From Narcine bancroftii (lineage: Eukaryota): a DNA stretch of 64,000 nt. Shown here piece by piece: positions 4,202 to 13,204 of this stretch. Below the pieces are notes generated by a model that saw only the letters and a program-made list of their open reading frames with translations, searched no databases and was not told the origin of the DNA. Position 1 is the first letter of the stretch. Every line of letters starts with the position of its first letter. The DNA lies in NCBI RefSeq assembly GCF_036971445.1, contig NC_091473.1:233182001-233246000 (forward strand), given 5' to 3'. The position numbers and the translations under genes were made by a program.

Positions 4202-4330
4202 TTATGGGATCCCGAGCAAATACTGAATCAGTTTCACAGCTGGGTTCTCCTGACCCCGCGGAATTCACTGCAGTCACTCGGAACTCATACTCTAGCCCTT
4301 CAACGACATTAGTGACTGTCCACTTCATAT
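4202..4330 (-). CDS. IGFN1: IGFN1 exon, FN3-2 second half (DMKWTV...YEFRVTAVNSAGSGEPS...ARDPI)
   Basis: acag/gtaag borders; YEFRV.A.N..G motif. Confidence 0.93.
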
Positions 4331-5355
4331 CTGTGGAAAAGAGGCCCAAAATGTCTTACAGATCATAACAATCTTAAGATGTTGAACTGATGCACTCAAT
4401 GTACCATTAAAATGGATGTTGGTTCTTAATTTTTAACTTTTCAGATTCTAAGCATTCAAGTAAATATCTCCACTTTGCATGCCAGCAGCTTCTGCAAAGA
4501 TAGAACAGTAAGAATAGGGAGATCTAAATGTAACAAATCATATGAGGTTTTACTTAAAGTGGGATGATTAAGTACAAAGGGTAAAACCTGAAAGTCTGTA
4601 GACACTGTGAATGAGCCTGAAATGTTGGTTATGTATCTTTATCTATGCTATATAAAGAACACTGTTTGACCTGCTGAGTTTCACCAGCCTTGTGCTTTTA
4701 TTGTTAAGTTTAAATATACAGCAAATTGAACAAGACTACGGAACTTGCCTTTAATTATGGGGCCAGATGATCCTTTTGAACATGAACAGCTACTTCTATT
4801 CTAAATTCTTTTTAAAACATGCGAAAATTAAGAGGCAAGACGTTGTGGTAGCCTTAGTTGAAGGTGCATTTTTGTTCGATCAAAATAATATTTTGCTTCA
4901 TCCAAAATATTTTTTAAGTGAGGGAGTTAATGAGCAGCTCTTGGTGGTACCTGACTGGCATGTTGGCTGGATTAATCTGGGACATTAAAATTCATTTTAA
5001 TAGTCTAATTATAGTTTGTGGCCATTGCTATTTTTCACTGAGAAACGATGACCTGCTATGTGAAATTTTTTTAAAAGTGGCATTGCATGGAAATCTGAAA
5101 TAAAAATAAAAAATGGTAGAAGCGCTCAACAGGTCAGGTAGCATCTGATAGAGAAACAGAATTAACGTTACAGGTGAGGGATCGTACAGTCAGAAAGCAT
5201 TTTTTTTTCCATAGATACTGCCTAACCTGCTGAGCATTTTCATAAATTCCTGCTTTATATGTGAAATTATTTGCTAAATATTGGGGTGTCTGCAACTTGT
5301 GTTAAATGGTCAGTCATTTAGAGTAATTCTGCAAATGGTTTGTCTCTATTACCTG

Positions 5356-5521
5356 ACAAAAGACAAAAGAGGAAAACCCCAACACCCAACCCCAACCAAC
5401 AAATTTTCCGCTGCAACTGTGTCTGCCTGTCCCGCATCGGACTTGTCAGCCACAAACGAGCCTGCAGCTGACTTGGACATTTACCCCGCCATAAATCTTC
5501 GTCCGCGAAGCCAAGCCAAAG
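5356..5521 (+). mobile_element. RTE LINE 3'-end fragment inserted at the IGFN1 splice donor; TSD ATTACCTG (5348-5355, 5522-5529)
   Basis: Near-identical to the 3' end of the RTE at 62518-63860 (CCATAAATCTTCGTCCGCGAAGCCAAGCCAAAG). Confidence 0.93.
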
Positions 5522-5526
5522 ATTAC

Positions 5527-5700
5527 CTGTAATTGGATGGTCAGTGACAACAGTCCAAGTATTGCTCCCCTTCTTGCGTTTTTCTATGATATAACCAATT
5601 AAGTTGGAACTTTCAATCTTTTTTGGGGGAGTCCATGACAATGTAATGGACTTGCTGTTTGCATTCAGAATTTTTGGTGTTGCAACAGGTCCAGGAACAG
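5527..5700 (-). CDS. IGFN1: IGFN1 exon, FN3-2 first half (AVPGPVATPKI...WTVVTDHPIT)
   Basis: gcag acceptor; CAG|gtaatc donor; a second duplicated donor lies at 5353. Confidence 0.92.
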
Positions 5701-5797
5701 CTGCAAAATAGGCTTATCATCAGACATTATATTTAGTGGCTATCTTACTACTTTATAAAAAATGGTCAGTACTTGGTTCAGTTTTACTAGAACCCAC

Positions 5798-6097
5798 CTC
5801 TTTTACCAACTCTGACTGTATCGGATATCAAGGCCCCACTTACACCTTCAGAATTTGCTGCCCAGACTTTGAATTTATAATTCTTTCCGGGCTCGACTTT
5901 GGAAAAAGAAAATGTTGTTTTTAACTCGTTCACTTCACCAAGTTTAGTCCATATATTTCTTCCCACCAGTTGTTTTTCTATTAAGTAGTGTTGGATAGGT
6001 TTCCCGCCATCATCCTTGGGTGGTTTCCATTTAAAGGTGATACAACTGTCAGAACTCTCCAAAACCTCTATAGGTCCCTGAGGAGCCTGTGGCTTAT
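5798..6097 (-). CDS. IGFN1: IGFN1 exon, FN3-1 (DKPQAPQGPIEVL...WKPPKDDGG...); donor at 5798 or 5807
   Basis: FN3 motifs; two in-frame candidate donors 9 nt apart. Confidence 0.9.
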
Positions 6098-6292
6098 CTG
6101 AAAAAGACCATGAATAAAATATTCATTTCAAATTAAACTGAATATTATTTTTTATGGCATTAAAGTTAACAGGTTAAATATCAAAACTTTTAGGAGATGT
6201 CAAAGAAAATCTGGCATCTTTTAAATATTTCTGTTCAAAGGAATTTATGGAATTTTGCAACATCTGGTTGTGTATTAATTTTTGTTTACTTT

Positions 6293-11713: not shown

Positions 11714-13204
11714 CTTTGCTCTTGTGCTTCTGGTCTATTGTGACCTCGCTTTCAGAACGTTTTCCTTTTCTCTTTCTTGCACTGCTGGTTTGTTTCTGAG
11801 ATAAATCAGAAGCCAGCAAGTCCTGTTTACTTTCAGCCATGGAGTCATCTTGGATTGGCATCTGATCATCTCTCAATAAACCTTTATTATTACCTACCAA
11901 TGAAGCATGTCTACCTTTTCCAGTTCCAATACTTGTACTCATGTTTAACAACTCACCACCCATACTTAATGCATCAGTGTCATGACCTTTACCAATAATT
12001 CCAGCGAAGACAGAGTCACCATACTCTGCTAAGCCATTTTTTCCTTGATTAGAACCAGTTTCTACATCGTTTTGTGTCTCTTTCCATTCTGATGCATTCA
12101 ATCTGCTTTCGAGATCCAAACCTTTCATGTCAATTATTCCACTGCCGTTCAATCTATCCTTCCCACCGTTTTCAATTCCATCGCAACTGCCCATCCTCTC
12201 TCTTTCCTTTCCATCCAGTTTGCCTTTCCCAACAGTTCCACTACCACCGAATCTGCTCGTATCATTTGCTTTCCTTCCATCCAGTTCACTCATGACATTG
12301 CCCATCCCATCTCTTCCCATTCCATCCAATCTGTCTTTGCCATATTTTCCAATAGCAGCTGACCCATCAAGGCCATATTTTCCCACCTCATCCACTCTGC
12401 CTTTGCCATCTTCACCCATTCCTCCTTCACCCATTCCATGCAAACTTCCCTTCCCATCTTTTCCCATTCCATACAAATTGCCACTTCCATCTTTTCCCAT
12501 TCCATACAAATTGCCACTTCCATCTTTTCCCATGCCAGTTATTCCCATTCTACCAAATTGGCACTTTCCATAGTCTTCTCCATCATGCTGATTTCCCTTT
12601 CCATCTTTTCCAATTTCACCCATACTTCTCTTCCCATCCATATCCATTCCACCCTTAGTATCCATGCCATCATTTCCCATTCTATCCCAGCTGTCCTTGG
12701 CATCTCCTCCCCTTCCACTCTCTCTGCCTCTTTGATCTCTTCTCATTCTCTCCCAACCATCCTTACCATCATTTCCCATTCCAACCAGATAGTCCTTTCC
12801 ATCTTTTCCTATTACATCAACACTATTCATGCTGTTATTTCTCTTGCCATCTAATTTGCTCAAGGAATCTTTATCCATTCTACCTAATCCAACTAAACCG
12901 CCTCTTCCAGTACCACTGCCATCCTTTCCCATTCTGCCATGTTCCCCAATGCCACCCATATTATCTCCATGCAATCCATCTGCTATAGAGTCCTGCCAAC
13001 CTCCTCTGCTAAATGTAGTTCTATCATCCTCTGAGGAGAGATCCCTTCTTCCCTTCAGACCATTTGTAGTCTTATCTTTATCACTTGGTAATCTGTTTGT
13101 GGTGCTTTTTATGCCTCCTTTCAAGTCATCCAAATCTTGTTCCAAAATAGTATCAGAAATGTCCTTTCCACTCCTTGAGTGATGTGAGGTGGTACTCAGT
13201 TTTT
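11714..13204 (-). CDS. IGFN1: IGFN1 giant low-complexity exon (497 aa; G/M/K/D-rich GMGKDG repeats)
   Basis: 1491-nt open frame with tttag acceptor and AAG|gtaaa donor, phase 1-1, between Ig3 and Ig4 where IGFN1 has its disordered region. Confidence 0.88.
12454..12533 (-). repeat. 33-nt coding tandem repeat (2.4 copies; GMGKDGSGNLY)
   Basis: ccatcttttcccattccatacaaattgccactt repeated exactly. Confidence 0.9.

What the first reader, a model, noticed from the sequence alone, without database searches (positions are those of the whole stretch)
5348..5529. RTE insertion duplicated the IGFN1 splice donor as its TSD, creating a second in-frame donor (+58 aa with a hydrophobic tail)
Seen in sequence: the 166-bp RTE 3' fragment is flanked by ATTACCTG on both sides. 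On the gene strand this reads CAG|GTAAT, the exon-intron junction itself. The exon therefore has two donors: proximal at 5527 (CAG|gtaatc) and distal at 5353 (CAG|gtaata, which keeps the original intron context). They are 174 nt apart, and the antisense RTE frame has no stop codon: GNLWLGFADEDLWRGKCPSQLQARLWLTSPMRDRQTQLQRKICWLGLGVGVFLFCLLS. Inference: the insertion was tolerated because the TSD rebuilt the donor. Use of the distal donor would give an NMD-free isoform with 58 TE-derived residues in the middle of FN3-2, ending in a ~17-aa hydrophobic, TM-like stretch. This would be exonization produced in one step by the TSD.
Basis: partly seen in the sequence, partly recalled or inferred. Interest (0 to 1): 0.85.

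Follow-up and report, generated by a model that had tools for sequence, protein, structure and literature searches.

The report
Retrotransposon copy duplicated a splice donor
A short piece of a very common jumping gene landed on an exon boundary of the muscle gene IGFN1 in an electric ray and copied the splice signal, but the one spliced RNA assembly that covers the spot skips the insert and gives the normal protein, so it is likely a harmless passenger rather than a new protein variant.

Summary
A 166-bp 5'-truncated retrotransposon end (RTE-type) lies antisense in IGFN1, flanked by ATTACCTG. This gives two CAG|GTAAT donors 174 nt apart, in frame and stop-free, with equal U1 pairing. Exonization is not supported. 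The only RNA contig over the gene (depth 47) joins 5527 to 4330; no 5353-4330 joint appeared in 3 runs, of which only one covers the gene. Contigs drop rare forms, and that animal's genotype is unknown. The open frame and hydrophobic stretch are inherited family traits. A simulated short copy is in frame and stop-free about 15% of the time. With at least 85,434 copies, 2-6 such donor duplications are expected, assuming typical donor numbers. A partial screen found a second at a UGT exon 1, out of frame. Verdict: real, a likely neutral passenger; dog merle PMEL is the acceptor-side precedent.

The parts
5798..6097 (-). IGFN1 upstream exon (first FN3 of the block), 300 nt
   Evidence: RNA contig X1 piece 5798-6098, joint 5700-5798
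5527..5700 (-). IGFN1 exon, first half of the FN3 domain, 174 nt; ends at the proximal donor
   Evidence: Pfam fn3 profile 5-46 of 84; RNA contig X1, 0 other letters
5522..5529 (-). TSD copy at the element's 3' end = proximal donor CAG|GTAATC; the junction seen in RNA
5356..5521 (+). 5'-truncated 3' end of an RTE-type non-LTR retrotransposon (end of ORF with C-C-H-C motif, stop about 5469-5471, short 3' UTR, tail of 0-1 nt), antisense to IGFN1; 5353-5522 if the microhomologies are counted
   Evidence: longer copies carry endonuclease and RT domains
5357..5404 (-). Codons of the hydrophobic stretch of the hypothetical extension; the same stretch is in all 29 nearest copies
5353..5375 (-). Element-derived pyrimidine tract (18 of 20 pyrimidines) plus CAG: acceptor-like half of a (Y)nCAG|GTAAT site; no AG for 56 nt upstream; nearest A residues 52-60 nt upstream
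5348..5355 (-). TSD copy at the element's 5' end = distal donor CAG|GTAATA with the ancestral intron behind it; CAG is also element sequence (microhomology)
4202..4330 (-). IGFN1 next exon, second half of the FN3 domain, 129 nt

Best explanation
A 5'-truncated RTE-type retrotransposon copy sits antisense on an IGFN1 exon-intron junction with the donor duplicated by its TSD, and is likely a tolerated passenger, because the exon-adjacent donor copy is the one used in the available RNA and gives the normal protein. Shown: the anatomy, the family, the TSD, the 5527-4330 junction in one RNA contig. Inferred: insertion by target-primed reverse transcription, with a staggered cut spanning CAG|GTAAT and 5' joining at a CTG microhomology; the proximal donor wins because it keeps the 174-nt exon (the distal one would make 348 nt); the insert is then removed inside a 1,196-nt intron (1,022 nt before insertion). 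The distal donor is used at most at a low, unselected level, and the open frame is inherited chance.
For: RNA contig X1 (3,840 nt, depth 47.2, 0 other letters) joins 4330-5527 and 5700-5798 unbroken; no 4330-5353 joint in 3 of 3 runs. P0002 and 6 other shark/ray orthologues have no insertion at this place. Family size at least 85,434, so 2-6 TSD-covered donors are expected for an assumed 150-250 thousand donors; 2 found at recognisable coding donors among 160 screened copies, the second (UGT exon 1, L069) 79 nt apart and out of frame. The frame-opening four-C variant stands in 5,133 copies against 12,359 with five C; 14 of the 29 nearest copies have the same length class and open frame, and 29 of 29 the hydrophobic stretch. 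Simulated chance of in-frame and stop-free: 0.153. Of 12 internal exons modelled, 11 are 300 nt or shorter.
Against: Only 1 of the 3 runs covers the gene; contigs show presence, not absence; the run is guessed to be RNA and its genotype is unknown, so an allele without the insert would give the same junction. The distal donor has the same U1 pairing energy as the proximal one. In an unbiased sample 0 of 25 copies would be both in frame and open at this truncation point, so the window copy is of a minority type. The truncation falls exactly at the best pyrimidine-tract CAG of the 22-23 in the element's last kilobase.
Confidence: 0.74

Rival explanations
1. One-step exonization: the distal donor is used at an appreciable level in some tissue, giving an NMD-free IGFN1 with 58 element-derived residues in the middle of an FN3 domain.
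For: In frame and stop-free. Equal U1 pairing, both among the stronger donors of the gene. Precedent on the acceptor side: dog merle PMEL, in-frame +52 aa (PMC6091007, passages).
Against: No 5353-4330 joint at depth 47, and the contig runs through unbroken. Absent from the annotated protein. Frame and hydrophobicity are family traits; the copy has only 2 private changes. The insert would split an FN3 domain in the middle; that this would destabilise it is inference.
Confidence: 0.12
2. Two-step (recursive) removal: the element's antisense pyrimidine tract plus the TSD's CAG act as an acceptor; the insert is first spliced out as a 174-nt intron (5526-5353), which rebuilds the ancestral donor CAG|GTAATA, and the old 1,022-nt intron follows. 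The mRNA is the same as in the best explanation.
For: The site matches the ratchet-point consensus (y)nncag|gt (PMC2773006, passages). 18 of 20 pyrimidines ties the best of the gene's 14 modelled acceptors (range 11-18), with an AG-free zone of 56 nt. It is the best such CAG in the element's last kilobase. Compatible with the junction seen.
Against: No 5527-5352 intermediate among the joints (weak, contigs). No A within 51 nt upstream, so a branch point would be distal and weak. The intron is only 1.2 kb, and vertebrate introns show little enrichment of such sites (PMC2773006, passages). The private change at 5377 puts a G for a T on the gene strand just upstream of the scored tract, so nothing strengthened the site. 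The UGT case lacks such an acceptor yet persists.
Confidence: 0.1
3. The insert is an assembly error or a rare allele, and the RNA came from the empty allele, so nothing is learnt about splicing of the insert allele.
For: No DNA run was listed; no listed contig spans an insert-flank junction.
Against: Clean TSD, microhomology and tail-side A are typical of real insertions in this family. 5 differences from the commonest letters of the 29 nearest copies, 2 of them private, suggest it is not brand new (inference). The locus is single-copy in the assembly.
Confidence: 0.04

Closest known systems
Dog merle allele: SINEC_Cf in PMEL (PMC6091007, PMC7349775; passages read)
   Same: Antisense retroposon inserted on an exon boundary, TSD (15 bp) covering the splice site, competing sites, in-frame insertion of similar size (+52 aa).
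   Different: Acceptor side; aberrant RNA and phenotype are reported; the alternative site is described as a cryptic acceptor in the SINE. Here it is the donor side, a LINE fragment, and no RNA evidence for the long form.
Transposon-derived introns and introners (PMC11282704; passages read)
   Same: Splice signals co-opted from the TSD and the element make the insertion invisible in mRNA.
   Different: Introners insert into exons and create new introns, mostly as DNA transposons in families of many introns. This copy hit an existing donor; only 2 coding-donor cases were recognised among 160 screened copies.
Ratchet points / zero-length exons (PMC2773006; passages read)
   Same: The distal site has the (Y)nCAG|GT form.
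   Different: Known mainly from very long introns; here a 1.2-kb intron, made in one step by an insertion, use not shown.
Alu/L1 insertions at NF1 splice sites (PMC3219598; passages read)
   Same: Target-primed insertions with TSDs at or near splice sites.
   Different: Those caused exon skipping or cryptic-site use and disease; here the normal junction is present.
RTE-clade LINEs (insertion signature in PMC6007223; passages read)
   Same: TSD 7-15 bp starting with A, short A-rich repeat tail, endonuclease plus RT.
   Different: Clade placement was not tested by a tree; the label rests on these features and on recalled motifs.

Membership tests
RTE-clade non-LTR retrotransposon | AP-endonuclease and reverse-transcriptase domains | tested here: met
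   RVT_1 E 6e-36 in L011; Exo_endo_phos_2 E 1.7e-5, just under the curated cut-off, and RVT_1 in L150
RTE-clade non-LTR retrotransposon | Single ORF in an element of about 3 kb | tested here: inconclusive
   L150 and L159 hold about 2.9 kb of element with the coding region in broken pieces; no intact copy was sought
RTE-clade non-LTR retrotransposon | Microsatellite-like A-rich 3' end and TSD of 7-15 bp starting with A | tested here: met
   AAG-type tails; 27 of 29 TSDs start with A, 28 of 29 are 8-13 bp (minimum of 8 was imposed); reference PMC6007223
RTE-clade non-LTR retrotransposon | RT phylogeny inside the RTE clade | not tested
   no named reference RTs were at hand
Exonized transposable element (alternative 5' splice site) | The main spliced RNA contains the element | tested here: not met
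   contig X1 skips it; P0002 lacks it
Exonized transposable element (alternative 5' splice site) | A minor spliced form contains the element | not testable with these tools
   only contigs were on offer, no raw reads
Recursive splice site (ratchet point) | (Y)nCAG|GT juxtaposed acceptor and donor | tested here: met
Recursive splice site (ratchet point) | Splicing intermediates or lariats at the site | tested here: inconclusive
   no 5527-5352 joint, but contigs only
Recursive splice site (ratchet point) | Long-intron context | tested here: not met
   intron of 1,196 nt
Introner | Insertion into an exon creates a new intron position, repeatedly across a family | tested here: not met
   inserted at an existing donor; 2 coding-donor cases among 160 screened copies

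The most novel reading that the evidence does not exclude
A single LINE insertion built a working recursive splice site: the TSD supplies a donor at each end, the element's antisense pyrimidine tract and the microhomology CAG supply an acceptor, so the insert is excised as its own 174-nt intron and the ancestral donor is rebuilt at a zero-length exon, in a 1.2-kb vertebrate intron; the same site doubles as an in-frame alternative donor.
Probability: 0.1. Interest if true: 0.65.

Novelty: new member of a known kind. Interest (0 to 1): 0.27.

Why it matters
It is a clean natural example of how a retrotransposon can hit a splice donor and do no evident harm: the TSD restores the signal. Two such cases in one genome, one in frame and one not, give a ready pair for testing how the spliceosome chooses between identical donors. 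If distal use or two-step removal were shown, it would be a one-step route to a new coding segment or to a recursive splice site. On present evidence it changes nothing in the protein.

Tried and rejected
Membrane anchor: rejected; the stretch is internal, present in 29 of 29 nearest copies, and mouse IGFN1 is reported at Z-disc and nucleus (PMC5493368, passages). Open frame as a sign of selection: rejected. Runs X2 and X3 do not cover the IGFN1 exons (X2 has one unspliced piece at depth 2.3), so they say nothing on donor choice; the huge depth over the insert comes from other copies. No listed holder is on record as RNA, and no DNA holder was listed. Homologue search with exon plus insert found no protein covering the insert among 14 hits, 'longer' class only. 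Presence or absence in related species could not be tested: no related genomes are held. MaxEntScan is not available; U1 pairing energy with the genome's own U1 5' end was used instead. One junction of the gene model (27007-25437) was not resolved and is left out of the donor and acceptor counts. First TSD screen required AG|GT in both copies and missed the UGT case; redone. UGT exon 2 was not found within about 19 kb. Screen limits: antisense orientation only; three donor patterns; tail gap up to 12 nt; of the 108 matches only 30 loci plus 2 fetched singly and those shared were read; exons recognised by Pfam only on frames of 24 aa or more. Literature searches for the donor-side case gave no direct description, nor for retrotransposon-made recursive sites; subscription papers are not covered and no supplements were read. 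PMC12269974 (passages) was irrelevant. Earlier-findings look-ups returned nothing.

Full report
Observation. The window has ATTACCTG at 5348-5355 and 5522-5529 around a 166-bp insert. On the minus strand these are CAG|GTAATC (exon ends at 5527) and CAG|GTAATA (would end at 5353). The gene is IGFN1: the best named homologue P0002 (source label Narcine bancroftii) matches 16 exon blocks of the window at 89-100%, the shortfalls in part from junction overhangs. Pfam fn3 covers profile positions 5-46 of 84 in the exon before the insert, so the junction is mid-domain. The locus is single-copy in the assembly.

The element. The insert matches many places at 95-97% (40 scored of 1,295 candidates); an exact 18-mer of its 3' end occurs 85,434 times, the reversed control 0 times. 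Longer copies carry RT and, more weakly, endonuclease domains, end in AAG-type tails and have TSDs that mostly start with A and are 8-13 bp long (27 and 28 of 29; a minimum of 8 was imposed). This fits the RTE signature in PMC6007223 (passages); clade placement by tree was not done and the RTE label also rests on recalled motifs. The CTG of the left repeat is element sequence too (28 of 29 other copies), so the 5' junction has a 3-nt microhomology. The copy differs at 5 columns from the commonest letters of its 29 nearest relatives, 2 of them private.

Which donor is used. Three runs were listed, all contigs and only guessed to be RNA. In X1 one contig of 3,840 nt and depth 47.2 covers three exons with no other letter and joins 4330-5527 and 5700-5798. 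No joint 4330-5353 and none 5352-5527 was listed in any of the 3 runs; X2 and X3 do not cover the exons. Limits: contigs drop rare forms, the tables of loose ends and pieces were cut, and an allele without the insert would give the same junction. P0002 also reads through the proximal donor, and none of 14 homologues contains the antisense peptide; this is annotation, not independent proof. Against: distal use would make a 348-nt exon, while 11 of 12 modelled internal exons are 300 nt or shorter; that exon definition favours the shorter form is general knowledge.

Is the open frame special? It is inherited. 14 of the 29 nearest copies have the same length class and an open frame, and all 29 encode the same hydrophobic stretch (this sample is biased towards likeness to the query). 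In an unbiased sample (25 of 30 copies reached this position) 2 were in frame, 3 open, 0 both, because most have one more base in a homopolymer run. The shorter variant is itself common: 5,133 copies against 12,359. Over truncation lengths of 50-300 nt, TSDs of 8-13 nt and three phases, 15.3% of simulated extensions are in frame and stop-free.

Is hitting a donor special? For an assumed 150-250 thousand donors, 10-32 antisense copies should land within 5-10 nt of a donor, and 2-6 after allowing for the share with a detectable TSD (29 of 148). I screened 160 distinct copies with a donor-like motif behind the tail. 29 have the motif duplicated. Pfam on 130 flanking frames plus inspection recognised one more at a real coding donor: an intact UGT exon 1 (L069), TAG|GTAAGG duplicated by a 10-bp TSD to TCG|GTAAGG, 79 nt apart, out of frame with a stop. 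So the event recurs at about the neutral rate and does not need frame preservation. The screen is partial (see Tried and rejected).

On the gene strand the distal site is preceded by 18 pyrimidines in 20 and an AG-free zone of 56 nt, equal to the best of the gene's 14 modelled acceptors. It is the best such CAG of 22-23 in the element's last kilobase in 3 of 3 copies checked, and none of the other screened copies listed near this length ends at the same base. The site thus has the ratchet-point form (y)nncag|gt (PMC2773006, passages). The insert could be spliced out as a 174-nt intron, rebuilding the ancestral donor; the final mRNA would be the same. Against: no nearby branch A (nearest 52-60 nt upstream), a short intron, no intermediate seen, and the coincidence was noticed after the fact.

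Known relatives. Dog merle is the mirror case on the acceptor side: antisense SINE on an exon boundary, 15-bp TSD over the splice site, in-frame +52 aa (PMC6091007, PMC7349775, passages). Transposon-derived introns use TSD-borne splice signals (PMC11282704, passages). NF1 insertions at splice sites show the harmful outcomes (PMC3219598, passages). I found no paper describing the donor-side case or a retrotransposon-made recursive site in five searches of the open library; no supplements were read.

Verdict. Real and well formed; most likely a passenger (0.74). Appreciable exonization 0.12, two-step removal 0.10, artefact or rare allele 0.04. New member of a known kind; interest 0.27.

Noticed in passing
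L069:1447-1535 (G000:C1, about 213,961,210-213,961,300), gene on - strand: Second case: a 69-bp piece of the same element at the donor of an intact UGT exon 1; 10-bp TSD duplicates G|GTAAGGTTT; distal donor 79 nt on, out of frame. Exon 2 not found within about 19 kb.
   Followed up: partly
L139:3300-3850 (G000:C16, about 183,472,060): Element inserted about 24 nt into the intron behind a B-box (TRIM-like) exon; the real donor CAG|GTGAGT is not duplicated.
   Followed up: partly
window 5353-5410 and the same place in family copies (L007, L011, L024): The antisense strand of the element carries a strong acceptor-like site about 170 nt from its 3' end; with over 85,000 copies this could be a genome-wide cryptic acceptor, as in antisense Alu.
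   Followed up: no
L145 (G000:C17, about 137,850,060): A copy flanked by a 69-bp exact direct repeat, far longer than the usual 8-13 bp TSD.
   Followed up: no
window 27007-25437: The junction between these IGFN1 exons was not resolved by the script; about 13 residues of P0002 (136-148) have no tblastn block, so a small exon probably lies between.
   Followed up: no
window 11714-13204: One very large IGFN1 exon of 1,491 nt (about residues 408-905 of P0002).
   Followed up: no
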